Below, piece by piece: positions 33,269 to 43,066 of a stretch of DNA of 64,000 nucleotides. The notes under the pieces were generated by a model that saw nothing but the letters and a program-made list of their open reading frames with translations, was not told the DNA's origin and ran no database searches. Source of the stretch: a virus (Duplodnaviria > Caudoviricetes); IMG/VR virus record IMGVR_UViG_3300028588_000015, positions 128,001-192,000 of that record; one strand, written 5' to 3'. The stretch's first letter is position 1. Each line of letters starts with the position of its first letter. The position numbers were made by a program, and so were the translations under genes.

Positions 33269-33985
33269 CTATGGATTCTTGTACATGTACGGCCTGTACT
33301 TGTCCATCCGGTTCAGGATACGCCCCGGGTACTTGCTGTTGATCTGGCAAAAAGATTCACCATACCCAGCTTGCTTCACATTGGACGCAGCGCATTGCTT
33401 TTCCAAATGCCCATCCCACACCCGGGGGTTGCAGTCGGCTTTGGTACGGCACATGCGAATGCGGGCTGAGAAACCACCCAAGCCGCCATTGTAAGCCGCA
33501 CCGTCGCACTTCTTCACATCAGTCAGGTTCGCCATCCACACCTTGCAAGAACGTTCGTTCTGCTTGAGTTTCAGGATCATGCCCCGCAATTGGAACCGCG
33601 CATTGTAACAGTCAGTCCAATTCCACGCTGCCAAGGACTTGTCCAGTCGCTTGGTCTCTTCCAGTGCATCGAAGCGCACACTCCCATTGGCATTGAAAGT
33701 CCGGGTGAATTGGCCAAAGCCGCAGCCGAATTCACGCGAAGTTTTCAATGTCGCTTTGAGCTTCCACAAACTCTCTTGCTCCACCAAACCTGCCGAGAAT
33801 TCCCGCATGTCCATGTCCGCCCAATAGGCGTCGATCTCTTCAACCAACACCGGCAGGTAGGTCGTCGCATCGTTCGGTAGCTTCACCGATGCTGCGTAGG
33901 CTTGGCCGATTGCCATGATGGTAGCAAATGCCAACCACAGCGATGTGATCAAAACGGGACGATTCTTCGCAATGTACGCTTTCAT
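33269..33985 (-). CDS. Lytic transglycosylase (SLT-like endolysin) with N-terminal signal peptide
   Basis: EQES catalytic Glu motif, G.GQF, AAYNGGLG; hydrophobic N-terminus ending AYA|A; ATGA overlap with the upstream gene. Confidence 0.82.
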   Translation of the reverse strand: MKAYIAKNRPVLITSLWLAFATIMAIGQAYAASVKLPNDATTYLPVLVEEIDAYWADMDMREFSAGLVEQESLWKLKATLKTSREFGCGFGQFTRTFNANGSVRFDALEETKRLDKSLAAWNWTDCYNARFQLRGMILKLKQNERSCKVWMANLTDVKKCDGAAYNGGLGGFSARIRMCRTKADCNPRVWDGHLEKQCAASNVKQAGYGESFCQINSKYPGRILNRMDKYRPYMYKNP

Positions 33986-34365
33986 TTCAGGAAGTCGCAC
34001 AGTTGCAGCAGGATCACCATGCGCACCACCCAGGTGAACTTGCTGGCCCAGTAGATATGGGCGGCGCCGATGGGGTCTTGCATGGCCTTCTTGGCGGCCG
34101 ACTGGATATCGACGCCCGGCTGGGTGGACATGCGAATCCAGAAGATCGACAGTTCGAGCCAGGTGAGGATCGCCACCGCCCGGAAGATGATCAGGATTTC
34201 CGGGTAACGGTCCGGCACGCTGCTGCCGTGAAACCGCGCCAGATCGATCAGAGTATCGAGAATACCCGTCGCGGTCAAAAGCAGGATACCCAGCACCAGC
34301 GAGCGCAGGAAAGCGCGCTGGAGAACTTGCCAGGTCTTGTCGTTGAAACTTTTCAGAATGGACAT
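33982..34365 (-). CDS. Multi-TM membrane protein coupled to the transglycosylase (holin/antiholin-like)
   Basis: 2-3 hydrophobic segments; translationally coupled to the SLT gene. Confidence 0.6.
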   Translation of the reverse strand: MSILKSFNDKTWQVLQRAFLRSLVLGILLLTATGILDTLIDLARFHGSSVPDRYPEILIIFRAVAILTWLELSIFWIRMSTQPGVDIQSAAKKAMQDPIGAAHIYWASKFTWVVRMVILLQLCDFLK

Positions 34366-34383: not shown

Positions 34384-34418
34384 AATAAAAGAAGAGGAGA
34401 GGGCAGTTACCCTCTCCT
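34384..34418 (-). terminator. Terminator after the fibre operon
   Basis: aggagaggg-cagtta-ccctctcct with an A-rich tract on the left. Confidence 0.65.
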
Positions 34419-34425
34419 TACAGCG

Positions 34426-34902
34426 TTAACTGAGGTTGTGCGTCAAGATATACTTGTCGCCCAACTTAACTTCCAAGGTATCGAGGTCTTCCACGTTCAG
34501 TGCCACAAACGTTGTCGGTACATCGATCCTTTTCACACTAATGACTGGAATCAACTCGCGATTCATCGAGACAAACGCGTCACCGACCACCACATCGCCT
34601 GCTTCTTTCCAGCGGTAGACGTTGAGCGCTTTGTCGTACACGAAGTGCGTGTGCGTCAGCGTCGAATGCAATCCATTCAGTTTCACAGATTTATTTAACA
34701 CGAAGCGTTTGCACTGCCTCACCGAAGACACCTCGTTTACGCTCACGCGTGAAATGTTTTCTACCGTCCAGCTTTCCCAGTTATGTACACTGGAATCGAG
34801 CATGGTCGGTTCTGAGAAACTTGACACCATATCGCCTTCAACCAGATCGTCGACTAGGCGATCACCCAAAGGTGTATGCAGCACTGTCCCTAAGGCAAAA
34901 CA
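34426..34902 (-). other. Hint (intein-like/BIL) domain
   Basis: Block A CFALGTVLHTPLGDRLVDDLVEGD; block B LTHTHFV; W..A.D...GD; block F/G FVALNVEDLDT...ILTHN. Confidence 0.8.
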
Positions 34903-37848
34903 GCGCCCATCGACAACAAGACTGAAGCTGATCGTCGTCGCCACCGATGGGTCATTGGCTTGGCGAACATTGATCGTCACTGTCGCGTTGACCGCGTCGT
35001 CGGGACTACTGTCTCGAGAATCGACCAACAGACCGCTGCTTAACGTACCCCACGTGCCGTGGGGAATAGACGAGTTTACAAACCCGTTATCCGGGTTGTT
35101 ATAGTAATCCACCATCACCATGGCTTCGAAGCCGGCTGCATTGCCGTTCAGGAAGCGGCCCGACTGCGATGGCGTTTTGTCACCCGTACCTTGTCCCGCA
35201 ATAGCCCACGTACCGTCAGCATTCAGCCTGAACGTCATGGTGGCCATGGAACCAGGACTGTACGAATACAGGTTAGCCGGAATGTTGTTAATCCCGCTGC
35301 TGAAAGGATTCACATAGCCGCAATACGCGCTCTTGGCTTCCAGCAACTGTGCATAGCTACCGCCATTGCCGTCGGCGACAGATTGGTACTTGTCGTACTC
35401 TTGGCAGTATACGCTCAGGACTGTGCCCGCTGGCGGGTATTCATCCCATCCGGTGATAAATGACACCGCATCGGAATACGGTGAGTTAATTTGTCCCGCA
35501 GCGCTGGTGGCATAGTAATGCGCGTAGACCGTATACGTCTTGTGGTTTTGCAACGCATTCGAGGGGATACTGATACTGCCAGGATCGCCTGCGACGGTGA
35601 CGTGATCGTAGACTAAATTACCATCGCTGTCGTATACATTGCAGCGTGAGCCGCCATACGCCACGGTCCCATCGTTATTGTTGATAACCATGGGATTTAA
35701 ACGAAGCGCGAGGGCGGCGTCTTTACTCGACAAGACAACGCCATTCGGCGACCACCACGTGGGTTTCGCGAGCGACGGTACTGGTGGTGGTGTATAGCCG
35801 CAGGTCGGGCTGTTGGTCTGGTACAGTTGGTTGTATGAACCGCCGTTGCCATCGGCATATGTACGCCACAGATCAAAACCCTGACAGTACTGGTTCAGCA
35901 CGGTGCCTGCTGCCGGGGGCGAATAACCGCAGATCGTCGCATTCGTTTCCACCAAGACCGTGGTGTAACCACCATTGCCGTCAGCGATCTTATTGTACTT
36001 ATCGTATTCTACGCATGTGTAGCCGATCACAGTGCCTTGTGGTGGATACTGTGGCGGTGGAACGTAGCCACAGTCAAGGCTGTTCTGTTCCAGCAACTGC
36101 TCGTGGTCAGTGCCGTCACCATTGGCAATGCGTTGGTACTTGTCTGTTCCTTTGCAATACGTGGCCAGAACAGTACCAGCGGCAGGTGGTGGTACATAGC
36201 CGCATTGAAGGCTATTGATCTCCTTGACAATGTCGGTTTCACCGCCAAGACCGTCAGCGTAGACTACGTGCAGGGTGAATGTCCCATACTCGCAATAACG
36301 ACGCAGCTCTGTGCCCGCAGCTGGCGGCGGGATGTAGCCACACTCTATGCTCTTTGGTTGAATGAGTTGATCATACTGACCATAGTTACCGTCAGCGTAC
36401 GTACCCCATAGTTCGGTCGTGCCGGGCTTGCAGTAGCGACCAAGTTCAGTGCCTGGCGGCGTCGGTGGTACATAACCACAATCACCACTCTTGGCAGCGA
36501 TGATCTGCTCGAACTCACCATAATTACCATTAGCGTAAATGCCCCACAGGTCCACACCCTTGCAGAAGCGGCGCAGTTCAGTCCCGTATGGGATCGGTGG
36601 CACATAACCGCATTCGAGACTCTTGGGGTCGATGACCTGCTGGTACTCGCCATAGTTACCGTCCGCATAGGCGCCCCATTTTTCCACACCTTGGCAATAC
36701 GTACGCAGCAGCGTGCCATACGGGATGGGTGGGATGTACCCACACTCAAGACTCTTTTCTTCCCACAGCTGTTCGTATTCCCCATTGCGGCCATCCGCGT
36801 AGACGTGCCACATCTGGATATCTTTACAATACGTTCGCAGGAGTGTTCCGGCGGCCGGGTATGGCGGCACCGTGTCGAATGCCGCAGCAGCCGACCAGTC
36901 GGAATAGGCACCTTCGACGTCCGTATACCTGAAACGCCAGTAGTACCGCTTTGATCCTTGAAGAAGCTCCGGCGGCTGATATGATTGCACGGACGCGTCA
37001 ACAGTTGCGAGAAATTGAATGTCCGTAAAATCCGACGAGAGCGCCACATGAATCTGCGCTTGTTTTAGTGCGATACCGAAGAGTGAGTAATAATGCGAAC
37101 CCTCAAACGGTGTTTCTAATTTTACGCCAGTCGCGCCATTTGCCGGTACAAGCGCTTTTGGCCGGCGCACTGCGGGCAAAGTCGTGACAAGGTCTGACTT
37201 TTTGGCAAACTGGGGATGTGGGTCGGCATTTGCAATGTGCCCCGCCATGAGCGCGTCCACGCCCTCTTTGATATGCGTGGCGGAAGTACTGCGCAAGTTT
37301 TGAATCACACCCGTCACTTGCAACCGCGCTGCATCTTCGCCAACACTACTGGCCGACTGCATCCGGTGGATCGCGTCTTCCAAATACTCGGTGCCGTAAA
37401 CTTCCGATACGTGGTGCAGGTGGGGTGCCGGATTAAAGCGTTCGGGCTTATCGATGATGTCTTCCCAGCGGACATTCTCTTCACCCGACCCCAACTGGGT
37501 CAATGCTTCGATCAATTTCTTTTTCGAGTAACTGTCCCAGCGCCCCATTGCTTGGTAAGTAATGGTGATGTTATTGCTGACAGCCGGATCGGTAATCAAA
37601 ACGATGGTGCAAATACGACGGCCGTATTTCTTGGTTTCTTCGGCCAGCATCTCGCCGGCGCGGTACTGCTGACTTGTCAGTGTTTTACCGGTATCCGCGT
37701 CTTTAACAATCAAACTGGCGACAAAGAAAGCACCGTAATCGGGCACTGCAATACGAACAGGGCGATTAACCAGCACATGCGGCTCATTCGCCACCTTGTT
37801 TGAAGGCGCTTTGCCGCTTCGGTCCAACGGGAAATAAATAGAATCCAT
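34426..37848 (-). CDS. Tail fibre-like protein with Cys repeats and C-terminal Hint domain
   Basis: N-domain shared with three adjacent paralogs (phiKZ gp131-like); FN3-like YYWR...WS domain; nine repeats; C-terminal CFALGT...TxxH...THN. Confidence 0.85.
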   Translation of the reverse strand: MDSIYFPLDRSGKAPSNKVANEPHVLVNRPVRIAVPDYGAFFVASLIVKDADTGKTLTSQQYRAGEMLAEETKKYGRRICTIVLITDPAVSNNITITYQAMGRWDSYSKKKLIEALTQLGSGEENVRWEDIIDKPERFNPAPHLHHVSEVYGTEYLEDAIHRMQSASSVGEDAARLQVTGVIQNLRSTSATHIKEGVDALMAGHIANADPHPQFAKKSDLVTTLPAVRRPKALVPANGATGVKLETPFEGSHYYSLFGIALKQAQIHVALSSDFTDIQFLATVDASVQSYQPPELLQGSKRYYWRFRYTDVEGAYSDWSAAAAFDTVPPYPAAGTLLRTYCKDIQMWHVYADGRNGEYEQLWEEKSLECGYIPPIPYGTLLRTYCQGVEKWGAYADGNYGEYQQVIDPKSLECGYVPPIPYGTELRRFCKGVDLWGIYANGNYGEFEQIIAAKSGDCGYVPPTPPGTELGRYCKPGTTELWGTYADGNYGQYDQLIQPKSIECGYIPPPAAGTELRRYCEYGTFTLHVVYADGLGGETDIVKEINSLQCGYVPPPAAGTVLATYCKGTDKYQRIANGDGTDHEQLLEQNSLDCGYVPPPQYPPQGTVIGYTCVEYDKYNKIADGNGGYTTVLVETNATICGYSPPAAGTVLNQYCQGFDLWRTYADGNGGSYNQLYQTNSPTCGYTPPPVPSLAKPTWWSPNGVVLSSKDAALALRLNPMVINNNDGTVAYGGSRCNVYDSDGNLVYDHVTVAGDPGSISIPSNALQNHKTYTVYAHYYATSAAGQINSPYSDAVSFITGWDEYPPAGTVLSVYCQEYDKYQSVADGNGGSYAQLLEAKSAYCGYVNPFSSGINNIPANLYSYSPGSMATMTFRLNADGTWAIAGQGTGDKTPSQSGRFLNGNAAGFEAMVMVDYYNNPDNGFVNSSIPHGTWGTLSSGLLVDSRDSSPDDAVNATVTINVRQANDPSVATTISFSLVVDGRCFALGTVLHTPLGDRLVDDLVEGDMVSSFSEPTMLDSSVHNWESWTVENISRVSVNEVSSVRQCKRFVLNKSVKLNGLHSTLTHTHFVYDKALNVYRWKEAGDVVVGDAFVSMNRELIPVISVKRIDVPTTFVALNVEDLDTLEVKLGDKYILTHNLS
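35783..36862 (-). repeat. Eight tandem 43-46-aa two-cysteine repeats; a ninth lies at about 35311-35445
   Basis: Consensus P.GT.L..YC....W..YADG.GG.Y.Q.....S..CGY.PP read from the translation. Confidence 0.9.
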
Positions 37849-37862
37849 ACCAACTCCCTAAG

Positions 37863-38852
37863 TTACGAAGTGGTGAACGATGTCGCGGTAGACCACGGGG
37901 ACCATTCGCCTTCGGTATTTTGATAAGACACGCGCCAGAAGTAACGCGTATTTGCAGACAGCGCCGACGCGTGTGTGTAGTTCTGTACTGCACCCAAGGT
38001 AACATCGGCGACCATGTTCGTGAAGTCACGCGCCAAAGCGATTTGAATCCGCATCGCCTTTTGCGGAATACCGTAAAGGGCACGATAGGCATTGCAAGCA
38101 AAGGCCACGTTATTGCGGGTGACCGTTTTGGTTTGGTCCCCTGGGCTGACGTTCTTGGGGCGGCGCACTTGGGCGTATGCCAATAGCAGGGCGTTGCCAA
38201 CTTCCGACTTCTTCAGGTAATACGGGTGAGCATTCGCGTCGCCCACGTGCGCATCCATGAGGCCTTGTGCGTCTGTCGGGATGCCCGTGCCATATGGACC
38301 CAAAATGTCACTGGCGTACTTCAACACCGCGTCGTAGGTGGACACCCTACCATTGACGATCGTGCCGCTCACTGCGTTCATTGCATTTTCCAGACTGGCA
38401 AAACCGAATTCATCGTCCGTAAAGTCAGCAGGGGTGAGTGCAGGTGGGTGGGGCAGAACGTCCGTCCATGCGGGTGACCGGGCACTGGCCAAACGGCGGG
38501 TAAGCATGGCAACCACGTCCGTTTCTGGCACACTGTACGGGCCGCCGACCACTTGGTAATTCACCTTGACCGTATTGCTCACTGCGGGATCAGTAATGAC
38601 AATCAAGCCGCAAATGTCTTTCTTGTACTTTGAGGTGGGTATGTTGTAACGCCATGCGGCGTAGTACTGGCTTTTTGCCAGAGGCTGATTGTTGGCAGTA
38701 TCTACCAGTACCAGCGAGGTAGCGAAGAATGCACCAAAACGCAGCGCGAAAACCCGCAGACCTGTGTTCGGCACAGCACAGACTTCCCCTTGGACCAAAT
38801 TGTTGACACTGGTACCGCTAGGGTCAAGTGGGTAAGTATCGAGAGACGACAT
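37863..38852 (-). CDS. Tail fibre family virion protein
   Basis: YPLDPSG...N.V..E...FGAFF..SL...ITDPAVSN N-domain; HVGDANAHP motif; C-terminal FN3-like YFWRV...WSPWS. Confidence 0.82.
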   Translation of the reverse strand: MSSLDTYPLDPSGTSVNNLVQGEVCAVPNTGLRVFALRFGAFFATSLVLVDTANNQPLAKSQYYAAWRYNIPTSKYKKDICGLIVITDPAVSNTVKVNYQVVGGPYSVPETDVVAMLTRRLASARSPAWTDVLPHPPALTPADFTDDEFGFASLENAMNAVSGTIVNGRVSTYDAVLKYASDILGPYGTGIPTDAQGLMDAHVGDANAHPYYLKKSEVGNALLLAYAQVRRPKNVSPGDQTKTVTRNNVAFACNAYRALYGIPQKAMRIQIALARDFTNMVADVTLGAVQNYTHASALSANTRYFWRVSYQNTEGEWSPWSTATSFTTS

Positions 38853-38867
38853 GACGACTCCTTCTTA

Positions 38868-39866
38868 TTAAACGGCGCGGGTACTGAAGTACGTCACGGC
38901 ACTCCAGTCTGACCACGACAGGTCGTCCGACTGGTACCGGGCGCGCCAAAAGAACATGGTGTTGGCGGTTAGCAAACTGTCGATTTGGTAGGTATCCGTA
39001 ACCCCTTCCAGTACAACATCTTTTTCGAGCGTGCCAAACGAATTGTCGCGGGCAATTTGGACTTGGATTGCTTTTTGCGGATTGCGGTACATCGAATAAT
39101 ACGGCGATAGCTTGAATGCCAGATTACGCTGCACACCCGCTGCACCCTGTGAGGGTGTGATTCCCGCAGGAGTGCGTACCGTGAAGACGACGCTGTCGAC
39201 TTTAGTGCGCAAAATGTACTGGCTATGTGCCATGGGGTCGACCGCGTGTTTGGCCAGCAGTTTCGATGCCAAAGCCGATGCAACTGCGGCGAGCGACTGC
39301 TTCATCGTGTCGACGTAGCGATAGTAGTTGTCGTAATCGATTACCGAAGAAACTTCCATGGCCATGCGCGCACGCTCTACCGCATGAACAACTGGTTCGA
39401 AACCATAGATATCGCCGAGATCGTGAAGGTGGCGGACGGGGTTGAATTCAGTTGGGCGATTTTCGATTGCCATGTATTCGACAGAACGGCTATCGAGTTT
39501 TGCGATCTCGATCATGTCTAGAATTGGCAACAGTAAGTCTTCGTATTCGCCACCCACCACTTGGTACTGCAATTCCACGGTGTTACTGACGTGCGGGTCG
39601 GTAATCACAATTACTGCGCTGACCTCTTGACTAAAGCGTGCTGTCGGCTCAGCAATAATTCGGCTAATGATGTAATGCACACCACGCTCCAGTACGGTGT
39701 TACTGGCGCTGTCACGGATTTTCAGCGAGGCGGAGAAGAAAGCACCATAGGTCGGCACGATTGCTCGCCGTGCACGGCTTTCAAGGGTACGTGCTTCTCT
39801 TTGGACGAGATTACCCGGACTCTTTCCGGATGGATCGAGTGGATAACGGTGAAGATATCGGGACAT
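38868..39866 (-). CDS. Tail fibre family virion protein
   Basis: Same N-domain and C-terminal FWRARY...WSDWS as the neighbours. Confidence 0.82.
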   Translation of the reverse strand: MSRYLHRYPLDPSGKSPGNLVQREARTLESRARRAIVPTYGAFFSASLKIRDSASNTVLERGVHYIISRIIAEPTARFSQEVSAVIVITDPHVSNTVELQYQVVGGEYEDLLLPILDMIEIAKLDSRSVEYMAIENRPTEFNPVRHLHDLGDIYGFEPVVHAVERARMAMEVSSVIDYDNYYRYVDTMKQSLAAVASALASKLLAKHAVDPMAHSQYILRTKVDSVVFTVRTPAGITPSQGAAGVQRNLAFKLSPYYSMYRNPQKAIQVQIARDNSFGTLEKDVVLEGVTDTYQIDSLLTANTMFFWRARYQSDDLSWSDWSAVTYFSTRAV

Positions 39867-39952
39867 AAGGGCTCCGGATTAAAAGGTTACTATGCGAAAT
39901 AAACCAGCAACATGGCACTGTAGGCCACGCTGCTGGTTGGCATAGAAAGAAA

Positions 39953-40654
39953 TCAGGTATGGTAAGCCTGCACGTGGGCGGCTATCGCATCGGCTGCTGC
40001 CTTCGTCGCCATGGCTTGTGCTTGGGCATTCGTGGGTGCATCCAGCTGGGCGGCCGTCGTACCGTGGGGGTTGTTCTTGTCGCTCTTGTGACTGGCCAAG
40101 TCTTGACCGCCGCGCTGCGCAATTGTTGCAGTCATGGCGTTCAGGGCTGTTACCAGCGCTTCCATGCCTTTGAGATCGATGAGGCTGTATTCATGATCGA
40201 TCACCGGGAAAGCATTGGGTAGGTTGATGAGTTGTTCCCACGACGTCACGCGCGGGTTACCGATACGATTGGCCAGCAATTCAGCCAGTTCGGTATCACT
40301 TGGGACCCATCCACCACCGACCGTATTGTAGACCAAGGTGACCTTGCCGACCAACGCGGTGTTCAAAAAGCTAATGGAACCCCAGATCGGTTTGGCAGTG
40401 CTGTAGGACGCGTCGACAAAAGGATGAGAACAATAGTAGTCGATGTTCTTGTCCAGCGTACGCGGTGTATTCGTGACGCTGTCAACAAACACAATCGACA
40501 ATGAATCTTCAAAGAACGGCGCGACCTTGGGGACGATGAAGTAGTAATCACGCGGATTGGCGCCCGACAGGATTTGCTGTTCCCCGGTGATCTTGTTAGA
40601 GACTTTCGTACCCGTCGGATCGAACGGATACGACGTGGCGGTAATTGTGGACAT
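39953..40654 (-). CDS. Tail fibre family virion protein (gp130-like)
   Basis: YPFDPTG..SNKI..E; VPKVAPFF; FPVIDHE; HKSDKNNPHGTT motif. Confidence 0.8.
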   Translation of the reverse strand: MSTITATSYPFDPTGTKVSNKITGEQQILSGANPRDYYFIVPKVAPFFEDSLSIVFVDSVTNTPRTLDKNIDYYCSHPFVDASYSTAKPIWGSISFLNTALVGKVTLVYNTVGGGWVPSDTELAELLANRIGNPRVTSWEQLINLPNAFPVIDHEYSLIDLKGMEALVTALNAMTATIAQRGGQDLASHKSDKNNPHGTTAAQLDAPTNAQAQAMATKAAADAIAAHVQAYHT

Positions 40655-42046: not shown

Positions 42047-43066
42047 TTATCGAATATTCGGTGCCGTGACGTTGCCAGTTGACTTGATCGAGTCTACCGC
42101 CAACATGCCGCCACCCGCAAAGTCAAAACCACCACTCAGCGAGGAGATGCTACCGCCCACCGCGAAGCCGCCCGAGAAGGTGGCTTTCTGCGTGACATTA
42201 AGTTTACCACTGATGCTGTAGTCACCTTTATGGTTGGTCTTGGCGGTGATAGTGTTGTCATCCGCTGTCAACTCATTGGTGGACGCCGTGATGACGTTCT
42301 TGGTCGCTTTCAAGGTATTGTTGGTAATCGTACCAATCATGTCAGTGGCGTCGATCGTGACCTTTTTGGATTTAAGAGCAATCAAGTCTTCAGCTTCAAA
42401 GTGAATCTCGCGCTTGTCAATCAGGACTCTGGAGCCATCGTTGTTGAGCATCTCCAGCTGCCGCTCAATCGAATTGAGCATAAACGACTGGCCGAGCGTA
42501 TCTTGGATTTGCAGGAAGCCTTCGGCGCCATTGATCTGGATATCGAAACCGGCTTTTTCTTTATTGGCCACCGAGGTATGTAAGTGGATGATTTTGGTAT
42601 GGGTCGACAATTCGATGAAGTAACAGTTGTTGATGTCGAATGGCGCCTTTTCATCAGGATTGGCACTGAACGCCCAGACCACTGTTTCCAACTTACGCAG
42701 CCCAAGGTCATCCATCTCGGTCCAGTAATACGGTTCGGCTTCATCGAACTGCCAGACCATCACTCGTGAACCGCGACGCAAGTCCGGCGGCGACAAACGG
42801 TTGCCGCGGGCAAAAGGTAGCCAGATGGCCTTGATAGAGTTAGAGGTATCGGTCTCAACACTATACGCAGAACCATCCATGTCGGTGCCGGATGCCTTCA
42901 GCTTTTCGATATTGTCCGACAACTCACCATCGACCATCTGGAGTTGCTCGACCAAGACCACTTCAATTTCTTCGTTAAACGGTTTCTTGGGGTCGCCTGA
43001 CGCTAGGGGTTTGTTGGCGGCCACATAGCCAATCGAGCGAAATACCAAACGAGATGGACTCAACAT
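42047..43066 (-). CDS. Baseplate central spike protein (gp5/gpV-like)
   Basis: OB-fold-like PPDLRRGSRVMVW followed by beta-helix-type T/N/I repeats and a Gly-rich tip. Confidence 0.7.
   Translation of the reverse strand: MLSPSRLVFRSIGYVAANKPLASGDPKKPFNEEIEVVLVEQLQMVDGELSDNIEKLKASGTDMDGSAYSVETDTSNSIKAIWLPFARGNRLSPPDLRRGSRVMVWQFDEAEPYYWTEMDDLGLRKLETVVWAFSANPDEKAPFDINNCYFIELSTHTKIIHLHTSVANKEKAGFDIQINGAEGFLQIQDTLGQSFMLNSIERQLEMLNNDGSRVLIDKREIHFEAEDLIALKSKKVTIDATDMIGTITNNTLKATKNVITASTNELTADDNTITAKTNHKGDYSISGKLNVTQKATFSGGFAVGGSISSLSGGFDFAGGGMLAVDSIKSTGNVTAPNIR

What the first reader, a model, noticed from the sequence alone, without database searches (positions are those of the whole stretch)
34426..34902. 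Splicing-incompetent Hint domain capping a jumbo-phage tail fibre
Seen: the last 158 residues of the 1140-aa fibre start at GR|CFALGT, have block-B TxxH (LTHTH) and end in THN-L-S-stop. Established: Hint domains use Cys1 for an N-S acyl shift and His-Asn for C-terminal cleavage, while splicing also needs C/S/T at +1; here +1 is Leu with only two residues after it. Inference: the domain cleaves itself off the fibre, either as an intramolecular chaperone functionally like the unrelated S74 fibre chaperones, or by leaving a thioester at Arg that is ligated to a nucleophile, as in Hedgehog cholesteroylation. The second option would be a self-catalysed covalent modification of the fibre tip.
Basis: partly seen in the sequence, partly recalled or inferred. 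Interest (0 to 1): 0.78.

Follow-up and report, generated by a model that had tools for sequence, protein, structure and literature searches.

The report
Self-cleaving Hint cap on phage fibre
The long tail-fibre protein of this uncultured giant phage ends in a small intein-like (Hint) domain with every catalytic residue intact and only two residues after it; it most likely cuts itself off the fibre tip, a way of maturing phage fibres that I found described in no paper.

Summary
The ORF at window 34426-37848 (-) encodes 1140 aa. Residues 983-1140 begin at Cys983 after VDGR, carry T1063-x-x-H1066, and end His1137-Asn1138-Leu-Ser-stop. A terminator hairpin follows directly.

Pfam alone is sub-threshold (Hint_2, E 0.002). 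An exhaustive search found 144 relatives. With 104 of them as the alignment, AlphaFold gives a Hint fold at pLDDT 95. [quoted passage not shown]

Cys1 and the terminal His-Asn are invariant in the 104 aligned caps. In 124 of 149 proteins whose terminal His-Asn could be located, only 1-13 residues follow it. The carriers are phage tail fibres and tail-tip proteins; the nearest structure clusters are 99-100% viral. Among orthologous fibres the Hint is the best-conserved segment (51-59% identity) and the adjacent tip the most variable (30-33%).

Best reading (0.68): a BIL-A-like self-removing cap. A Cys983 thioester detaches the fibre at Arg982, and Asn1138 cyclisation sheds Leu-Ser.

"Splicing-incompetent" is too strong, because type-A BILs ligate without a +1 nucleophile. 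The tails carry Lys (93 Lys against 8 Arg) or Ser/Cys at their very end, so capture of the thioester by the tail stays open.

This scan has noted the same module before in other phages.

The parts
34426..37848 (-). Whole gene: 1140-aa tail-fibre-like protein (P0001)
   Evidence: Residues 6-211 match phrog_2163 (E 7e-43), with weaker tail and tail-fibre PHROG matches.
34435..34902 (-). Hint domain, Cys983 to Asn1138 (156 aa)
   Evidence: AlphaFold2 pLDDT 95. Foldseek top hit 2LWY, E 6e-9, TM 0.81 by target. Family profile against 2LWY, E 2.5e-15. 144 relatives found.
34900..34902 (-). Cys983, the Cys1 nucleophile. The scissile bond is Arg982|Cys983.
   Evidence: Invariant in 104 of 104 aligned caps.
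34768..34809 (-). Family-specific loop P1014-x-M-x-D-x(5)-W1024-x-x-W1027, between blocks A and B. It is extra relative to the 138-aa BIL 2LWY.
   Evidence: D1018 82%, W1024 86%, W1027 87% conserved. Modelled at high confidence with little regular secondary structure.
34651..34662 (-). Block B: T1063-L-T-H1066
   Evidence: Thr 91% (the rest Ser) and His 97% of 104 sequences.
34477..34494 (-). Block F: V1119-E1120-D-L-D1123-T1124
   Evidence: E1120 96% and D1123 97% conserved. It aligns with V-D-D-F-H-T of 2LWY.
34435..34440 (-). Block G: His1137-Asn1138, the site of Asn cyclisation
   Evidence: Invariant in 104 of 104.
34429..34434 (-). Two-residue tail Leu1139-Ser1140. Ser at +2 is nearly invariant in the close subfamily.
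   Evidence: Ser at +2 in at least 90% of 23 sequences. One orthologue has Cys there, ending HN-A-C.
34395..34418 (-). Terminator-like hairpin directly after the stop codon
34903..35298 (-). Tip domain, residues 851-982, ending in the conserved A/V-D-G-x just before Cys1. Probable receptor-binding part.
   Evidence: The most divergent segment among orthologues, 30-33% identity. It recurs in front of the Hint in shorter proteins. No match in Pfam, among cultured phages or in the Atlas.
35779..36858 (-). Eight tandem ~45-aa repeats with two Cys each (residues 331-690). Probable shaft.
35299..35433 (-). Ninth copy of the two-Cys repeat (residues 806-850)
37216..37848 (-). N-terminal anchor domain shared with three upstream paralogues (residues 1-211)
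   Evidence: phrog_2163
36871..37062 (-). Ig/FN3-like domain (residues 263-326)
   Evidence: PF25788 Ig_Rha78A_N, E 3.9e-5, below the cut-off. Above the cut-off in the paralogue at 37863-38852.
37863..40654 (-). Three shorter paralogues (329, 332 and 233 aa) with the same N-terminal domain and no Hint

Best explanation
Residues 983-1138 are a catalytically competent Hint domain of the type-A bacterial-intein-like (BIL) kind. It is used as a self-removing C-terminal cap on the fibre. The proposed course follows.

1. The fibre is made as an 1140-aa precursor.
2. Cys983, assisted by Thr1063 and His1066, makes an N-to-S acyl shift. This turns the Arg982-Cys983 peptide bond into a thioester.
3. The thioester is resolved, by water or a cytoplasmic thiol or possibly by the tail. 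This frees a mature fibre of about 982 residues that ends at the variable tip domain.
4. Asn1138, assisted by His1137, cyclises and sheds the Leu-Ser dipeptide.

The cap is a conserved module placed behind a fast-evolving receptor-binding tip. Its likely benefit is transient: it may help or police folding and assembly of the tip, or mask it until assembly, and it supplies a conserved 3' end next to an exchangeable tip.

Shown here: the fold, the full catalytic residue set, the terminal position, the family-wide conservation and the phage tail context. Inferred: that cleavage happens, when it happens, and what it is for.
For: Fold: AlphaFold2 on a 104-sequence alignment gives pLDDT 95.1. The best solved matches are the C. 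thermocellum BIL 2LWY (E 6e-9) and the Tetrahymena BUBL BIL2, followed by inteins and Hedgehog 1AT0.

Sequence: the family profile hits 2LWY at E 2.5e-15. Of 104 members, 67 hit PT-HINT, 50 Intein_splicing, 39 Hint_2 and 32 Hint.

Catalytic set: Cys1 and His-Asn are 100% conserved, block-B Thr 91% and His 97%, and block-F Glu 96% and Asp 97%.

Terminal position: in 124 of 149 proteins whose terminal His-Asn was located, 1-13 residues follow the Asn. In the first 122 of these, +1 is Cys, Ser or Thr in only 9.

Selection: among orthologous fibres the Hint is 51-59% identical, the most conserved segment, while the adjacent tip is 30-33%.

Context: the caps sit on phrog_2163 jumbo-phage fibre paralogues, on tail-fibre PHROGs and on central-fibre-J-like proteins. 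The nearest Atlas structure clusters (TM 0.86-0.90) are 99-100% viral, some with Laminin_G_3, fn3 or DUF642 domains. Cultured carriers are Phage NCTB, Dickeya phage AD1 gp108 and Alexandra-like Erwinia phages.

Established chemistry: BIL domains without a +1 nucleophile give mainly N- and C-cleaved products (PMC7664689; PMC4031507).
Against: There is no biochemical or proteomic evidence for cleavage in any member. If only release of the fibre mattered, the terminal His-Asn should be free to drift, as it is in Hedgehog-type domains (own knowledge). It is invariant, so the C-terminal junction must matter in some way this model does not explain. Nothing shows that a Hint domain assists folding or trimerisation. 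Ninety of 97 proteins with the same shaft repeat carry other tips without a Hint, so the cap is not needed for this fibre type as such.
Confidence: 0.68

Rival explanations
1. Thioester capture. The Arg982 thioester is not simply hydrolysed but passed to a defined nucleophile. The nearest candidate is the protein's own tail: Ser1140, or after Asn cyclisation the free amine of Leu1139, as in type-A BIL ligation. That would leave the fibre ending in R-L-S, or in an ester- or isopeptide-linked tail. Less likely acceptors are another chain of the fibre, another virion protein, or a host-surface molecule.
For: His-Asn is invariant although at most 13 residues follow it. Tails are strongly enriched in Lys but not Arg: 93 Lys against 8 Arg, with backgrounds of 3.2% and 2.9%. 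Lys lies in the last two residues in 54 of 124 tails, against 7.8 expected and 7 of 90 in Hint-less control proteins. Ser or Cys lies there in 31 more. In the window's subfamily Ser at +2 is at least 90% conserved, and one orthologue has Cys instead; Ser/Cys is the exchange typical of intein nucleophile positions. Type-A BILs can ligate without a side-chain nucleophile (PMC4031507).
Against: A nucleophile at +2, or at varying distances from the Asn, has no known precedent in Hint chemistry. Adding one to 13 residues to a fibre has no evident use. Lys or Ser at a C-terminus could serve stability or solubility instead. No adduct-recognition region follows the Hint. The sequences are related to one another, so the counts are not independent events.
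Confidence: 0.2
2. Retained structural domain. The Hint stays on the fibre uncleaved and serves as the distal knob or a binding module.
For: Some Hint-fold domains have lost catalysis and act as binding modules; 11 of 104 members also hit the AXH family in Pfam. PHROG 38766, which contains this domain, is labelled 'virion structural protein'.
Against: An uncleaved structural role gives no reason to keep Cys1, Thr-x-x-His and His-Asn invariant or nearly so across sequences that are only 21-58% identical to the window's domain. The variable segment expected of a receptor binder is the tip in front of the Hint, not the Hint itself.
Confidence: 0.07
3. Stranded selfish element. A mini-intein or BIL lost its downstream extein and persists without benefit because it removes itself.
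For: Hint domains are mobile, and phage genomes of this size accumulate inteins (PMC7824862). The cap occurs on unrelated tail proteins.
Against: There is no homing endonuclease. The same terminal layout recurs in 124 diverged proteins, with subfamily-specific conserved tails. The family shares its own conserved Trp-x-x-Trp loop. The domain is the most conserved part of the orthologous fibres. G+C content shows no break at the domain.
Confidence: 0.05

Closest known systems
Type-A bacterial intein-like (BIL) domains (Amitai 2003; Dassa 2004; C. thermocellum BIL, PDB 2LWY)
   Same: Best match by sequence profile and by fold. Shared features are Cys1, block-B TxxH, an x-T-Y-type block F, a C-terminal His-Asn, no +1 nucleophile and no endonuclease. 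They give mainly cleavage products and can ligate by aminolysis (PMC4031507, PMC7664689).
   Different: BIL-A domains are described as internal domains in variable regions of secreted bacterial proteins, with a real C-terminal flank. This domain is in a phage, sits at the extreme C-terminus with a 2-residue flank, has an extra ~20-residue Trp-x-x-Trp loop, and has Asp where 2LWY has His in block F.
Pretoxin HINT (PF07591) of polymorphic toxins
   Same: The Pfam family hit by most members, 67 of 104. It is a self-cleaving Hint placed near the C-terminus of long filamentous proteins, some of which contain tail-fibre repeats (PMC3482391).
   Different: PT-HINT releases a toxin domain that follows it. 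Here nothing follows but Leu-Ser.
Hedgehog/Hog autoprocessing domain
   Same: A C-terminal Hint whose Cys1 thioester releases the functional N-terminal part of the protein. Same fold (1AT0).
   Different: Hog domains carry a sterol-recognition region after the Hint and need no terminal His-Asn (own knowledge). This domain has no such region, and its His-Asn is invariant.
Intramolecular chaperone (peptidase S74) domains of endosialidases, tailspikes and the T5 L-shaped fibre
   Same: A working analogy only: a conserved, self-cleaving C-terminal module placed behind a variable receptor-binding part.
   Different: An unrelated fold and chemistry, with Ser/Lys-dependent cleavage inside a trimer (own knowledge). 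No S74 match in Pfam. A chaperone role for the Hint is not shown.
Class-1 mini-inteins
   Same: Fold and blocks A, B, F and G.
   Different: No Cys, Ser or Thr at +1, no C-extein to join, and not inserted at a conserved site of a housekeeping protein.

Membership tests
Hint superfamily | Hint (horseshoe beta) fold | tested here: met
   pLDDT 95 model. Forty PDB matches at E <= 0.001; all 40 listed are inteins, BIL domains or Hedgehog.
Hint superfamily | N-terminal Cys/Ser nucleophile and block-B Thr-x-x-His | tested here: met
   Cys983, Thr1063 and His1066, conserved at 100%, 91% and 97%.
Hint superfamily | Significant match to a curated Hint profile | tested here: inconclusive
   The window protein alone scores 19 bits on Hint_2 against a cut-off of 28.4. 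At family level the match is clear.
Type-A BIL | C-terminal His-Asn | tested here: met
   His1137-Asn1138, invariant.
Type-A BIL | No nucleophilic residue at +1 | tested here: met
   Leu1139. In the first 122 short-tailed proteins, +1 is Cys, Ser or Thr in 9.
Type-A BIL | Closest relatives are BIL-A rather than inteins or Hog domains | tested here: met
   2LWY ranks first by profile (E 2.5e-15) and by fold.
Type-A BIL | Internal position in a variable region of a secreted bacterial protein, with a C-terminal flank | tested here: not met
   Phage protein, extreme C-terminus, 2-residue flank.
Type-A BIL | Autocatalytic N- and C-terminal cleavage | not testable with these tools
   Needs expression and mass spectrometry.
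Class-1 intein | Cys, Ser or Thr at +1 and a C-extein to be ligated | tested here: not met
   Leu at +1, followed only by Leu-Ser and the stop.
Hedgehog/Hog domain | Adduct (sterol) recognition region after the Hint | tested here: not met
   Two residues follow the Hint.
Pretoxin HINT | A toxin domain C-terminal to the Hint | tested here: not met
   No domain follows.
Peptidase S74 intramolecular chaperone | S74 sequence or fold | tested here: not met
   No Pfam match. The fold is Hint.

The most novel reading that the evidence does not exclude
The cap is a ligase rather than a mere self-remover. The thioester made at the fibre's last residue would be captured by the conserved nucleophile at the very end of the tail: Ser or Cys at +2 in this subfamily, Lys elsewhere. 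Alternatively it would be captured by a neighbouring chain or a receptor-side nucleophile. Either route gives a self-catalysed covalent modification or cross-link of the fibre tip, which would be a Hint reaction with no precedent.
Probability: 0.2. Interest if true: 0.85.

Novelty: new variant of a known kind. Interest (0 to 1): 0.62.

Why it matters
Phage receptor-binding fibres are the main determinants of host range. Their maturation is known to use separate chaperones or S74-type self-cleaving chaperone domains. A Hint/BIL thioester module as the terminal cap of fibres from many unrelated tailed phages would be a third route, and I found no paper that describes it. It is directly testable, because cultured phages carry it (Dickeya phage AD1 gp108, Alexandra-like Erwinia phages, Phage NCTB). 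It also matters for annotation and engineering: the mature tip would end about 158 residues before the annotated C-terminus. The family is a natural set of compact, endonuclease-free Hint domains that work at a protein's very end, which is of interest for protein-ligation tools. The Lys and Ser/Cys tail rule raises a specific chemical question about what resolves the thioester.

Tried and rejected
- **Single-sequence AlphaFold2 of residues 940-1140.** pLDDT 38, unusable. It was replaced by the run with an alignment.
- **Megablast of the gene, and tblastn of residues 325-690 and 690-982, against cultured phages.** No match. The window's Hint alone found only Phage NCTB.
- **The search for related loci with the broad alignment A2.** With the close alignment A3 it returned four viral loci, two of them on contigs of 224 and 257 kb.
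- **Atlas look-up of the tip domain.** Nothing usable.
- **Cluster names for ten family members.** Nine carried no name; one was called only 'hypothetical protein'.
- **Complex prediction on three copies of residues 851-1140.** Intended to see whether tip plus cap trimerise. It returned 'no answer' (score 0.00), which is evidence neither for nor against.
- **Split-Hint idea.** Several metagenomic 'stand-alone' Hint proteins start M-x-D-G at profile position 13. In the one inspected (L011) the Cys1 strand lies in frame upstream, behind a scaffold gap, so the short protein is a gene-calling artefact.
- **A second Hint-capped protein in this phage.** None found.
- **Literature.** Searches for Hint, intein-like, tail fibre and jumbo phage found only terminase and RNR inteins, the polymorphic-toxin HINT, and S74-type caps. 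The Erwinia phage Y3 virion-proteome paper is not in the held library.

Full report
**Observation.** The window holds one 1140-aa ORF on the minus strand at 34426-37848. Its last 158 residues start at Cys983, preceded by V-D-G-R, and contain T1063-L-T-H1066. They end His1137-Asn1138-Leu-Ser-stop. A 10-bp hairpin with a T-rich tail lies on the same strand at 34395-34418, directly after the stop. Five orthologues end in the same register: HN-E-S, HN-L-S, HN-L-S, HN-R-S and HN-A-C. The two-residue end is therefore a real gene end.

**Is it a Hint domain?** The window protein alone is below threshold in Pfam. Hint_2 scores E 0.002 and 19 bits against a cut-off of 28.4, over the first 28 residues only. 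It also matches phrog_38766 at E 2e-7. Single-sequence folding failed.

An exhaustive phmmer search of 1.84 billion representative proteins found 144 relatives, 33 of them below 1e-10. With 104 of these as the alignment, AlphaFold2 gives pLDDT 95.1 and pTM 0.89. Foldseek then returns only Hint-fold proteins:
- first the C. thermocellum type-A BIL domain 2LWY (E 6e-9, TM 0.81 by target);
- then the Tetrahymena BUBL BIL2 domain;
- then many inteins and Hedgehog 1AT0.

The family profile hits 2LWY at E 2.5e-15 by sequence. Of the 104 members, 67 hit PT-HINT, 50 Intein_splicing, 39 Hint_2 and 32 Hint in Pfam.

**Catalytic residues.** Conservation across the 104 aligned caps, which are 21-58% identical to the window's domain:

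| Residue (window numbering) | Conservation |
|---|---|
| Cys983 (Cys1) | 100% |
| Asn1058 | 95% |
| Thr1063 (block B) | 91%, the rest Ser |
| His1066 (block B) | 97% |
| Asp1090 | 92% |
| Glu1120 / Asp1123 (block F) | 96% / 97% |
| His1137, Asn1138 | 100% |

The family also shares a loop between blocks A and B, P-x-M-x-D-x(5)-W-x-x-W, with the two Trp residues about 87% conserved. The 138-residue BIL lacks this loop.

**A family of terminal caps.** The terminal His-Asn could be located in 149 proteins. In 124 of them only 1-13 residues follow it. Among the first 122 of these, +1 is Cys, Ser or Thr in only 9; Ala (29) and Lys (25) are the commonest. Position -1 is Gly in 47 of 104, often as the end of a poly-Gly run. 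In the window's subfamily the junction is instead A/V-D-G-x|C, fused directly to the tip domain.

The carriers are phage tail proteins. They include phrog_2163 jumbo-phage fibre paralogues, several tail-fibre PHROGs and central-fibre-J-like proteins. The nearest ESM-Atlas structure clusters (TM 0.86-0.90) are 99-100% Uroviricota; some of them carry Laminin_G_3, fn3 or DUF642 domains. The best BFVD matches are proteins of Phage NCTB and of uncultured Caudovirales.

Cultured carriers exist:
- Phage NCTB has a 1304-aa 'large intein domain protein' ending G6|C...HN-APVDQKH, and a 506-aa collagen-like tail protein ending HN-AVMVAKK.
- Dickeya phage AD1 gp108 is a 'putative tail protein' ending HN-TDIVAKAEKK.
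- About twenty Alexandra-like Erwinia phages also carry it.

**Context in this phage.** The record is 225,547 bp and carries only this one Hint. The neighbouring genes are phiKZ-type core genes. The best cultured relatives, Burkholderia phage FLC9 and Ralstonia RP12-like phages, are only 35-43% identical in a conserved virion protein.

The gene is the last of four tandem paralogues that share the phrog_2163 N-terminal domain, and these lie next to a baseplate gene. The 1140-aa protein is built as follows:
- the anchor plus an Ig-like domain, residues 1-330, which equals the whole of the 329- and 332-aa paralogues;
- eight ~45-aa two-Cys repeats;
- an intervening region and a ninth repeat;
- a 132-aa tip domain with no detectable relatives outside this group;
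- the Hint.

Two 224-kb metagenomic phages are syntenic and keep the cap. Identity of the window protein to orthologues P0002 and P0007, by segment, with the more distant P0011 added for the tip and the Hint:

| Segment | Identity |
|---|---|
| Anchor (1-330) | 53-54% |
| Shaft repeats (331-690) | 54-57% |
| Middle (691-850) | 35-40% |
| Tip (851-982) | 30-33% |
| Hint (983-1140) | 51-59% |

The Hint is the best-conserved part and sits directly behind the most variable part. This is the pattern expected of a functional module behind a receptor-binding domain. G+C content shows no break at the domain.

**Mechanism.** Established Hint chemistry predicts three things. Cys983, with Thr1063 and His1066, converts the Arg982-Cys983 bond into a thioester. 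Asn1138, with His1137, cyclises to cut after itself. With Leu at +1 the class-1 trans-esterification cannot occur. BIL domains in this situation give mainly N- and C-cleaved products (PMC7664689; PMC4031507).

I therefore read the domain as a self-removing cap that leaves a fibre of about 982 residues (confidence 0.68). What the cap is for is inference. Possible roles are a transient aid to, or check on, folding and assembly of the tip, masking of the tip, and a conserved 3' flank next to an exchangeable tip.

Type-A BILs can ligate without a side-chain nucleophile, through the amine freed by Asn cyclisation (PMC4031507). A fibre ending R-L-S therefore cannot be excluded.

**An unexplained regularity that bears on the mechanism.** His-Asn is invariant although almost nothing follows it. 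That is hard to explain if only N-terminal release matters. The tails are also not random:
- Lys makes up 15% of tail residues against 3.2% in the same proteins overall. Arg is not enriched: 93 Lys against 8 Arg.
- Lys is among the last two residues in 54 of 124 tails, against 7.8 expected and 7 of 90 in Hint-less proteins with the same shaft repeat.
- Nearly all tails without Lys are x-Ser or x-Ser-Ala, as in this window. One orthologue has Cys in place of the Ser.

The tail therefore offers a nucleophile-type residue at the very C-terminus. This keeps alive the reading that the tail, or something else, captures the thioester (0.2). The sequences are related, so the counts are not independent events, and a role in stability is also possible.

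Against a Hedgehog-like transfer to a small molecule, no adduct-recognition region follows the Hint.

**Other rivals.** A retained, uncleaved structural knob (0.07) does not explain the invariant catalytic residues. A stranded selfish mini-intein (0.05) fits poorly for several reasons: there is no endonuclease, the terminal layout recurs in 124 diverged proteins, the family has its own conserved loop, and the domain is the best-conserved part of the orthologues.

**Novelty.** Hint, BIL and PT-HINT autoprocessing is well known. GenBank and UniProt already label a few of these proteins 'intein domain' or 'Hint domain'. I found no paper that describes a terminal Hint cap on phage fibres or tests its processing.

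Earlier notes of this scan report the same module on fibres of other, unrelated phages (e1-3482894, e1-3318316, e1-3506166). My results agree with them independently and add three points: the conservation gradient among orthologues, the Ser/Cys tail class, and the Lys-against-Arg count.

I class the finding as a new variant of a known kind.

Noticed in passing
window 35779-36858 and 35299-35433 (-), P0001 residues 331-690 and 806-850: Nine copies of a ~45-aa repeat with two Cys each (G-T-x-L-x-x-Y-C ... Y-A-D-G-N-G-G ... C-G-Y-x-P-P). No Pfam match. The repeat recurs in about 100 metagenomic proteins, many on contigs of jumbo-phage size. Most of them end in SPRY or other tips; only 7 of 97 carry a Hint.
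   Followed up: partly
window 37863-40654 (-): Three shorter paralogues (329, 332 and 233 aa) share the fibre's N-terminal phrog_2163 domain. Two also share its Ig-like domain. With the long fibre they form a four-gene array next to a baseplate gene at 42047-43066.
   Followed up: partly
window 33269-34365 (-): Directly downstream of the fibre terminator lie a 127-aa hydrophobic, membrane-type protein and a 243-aa protein with a weak endolysin PHROG match (phrog_669, E 3e-10). This may be a lysis cassette. It is syntenic in two related phages.
   Followed up: no
P0054, P0055, P0056, P0105, P0110, P0075, P0119, P0144 (metagenomic and bacterial proteins): Arrays of two to four Hint domains placed back to back, each joined to the next by only K-G-G (...H-N-K-G-G-C-F...), followed by Gly/Ser-rich regions. 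P0056 lies in a bacterial assembly and has a Tim44-like C-terminal domain. Their purpose is unknown.
   Followed up: partly
L001:768-1229 and L010:1159-2679 (Phage NCTB, LT598654): The Hint-capped tail protein BN7874_136 is followed immediately by a stand-alone 153-aa Hint (BN7874_135). This lacks the Cys1 strand but keeps the terminal H-N, ending H-N-K-V-D.
   Followed up: partly
L011:1049-1756: Metagenomic 'stand-alone' Hint proteins that begin M-x-D-G start at a conserved internal Met. In the one inspected, the Cys1 strand lies in frame upstream, behind a scaffold gap. At least this one is a gene-calling artefact rather than a split Hint.
   Followed up: yes
L003:6397-9053 (375-kb metagenomic contig): A 350-aa protein made of a tip-like domain plus the Hint cap sits in a three-gene island on the opposite strand to its neighbours, away from any recognisable tail module. 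The first gene of the island has a weak GT4-conflict Pfam hit.
   Followed up: no
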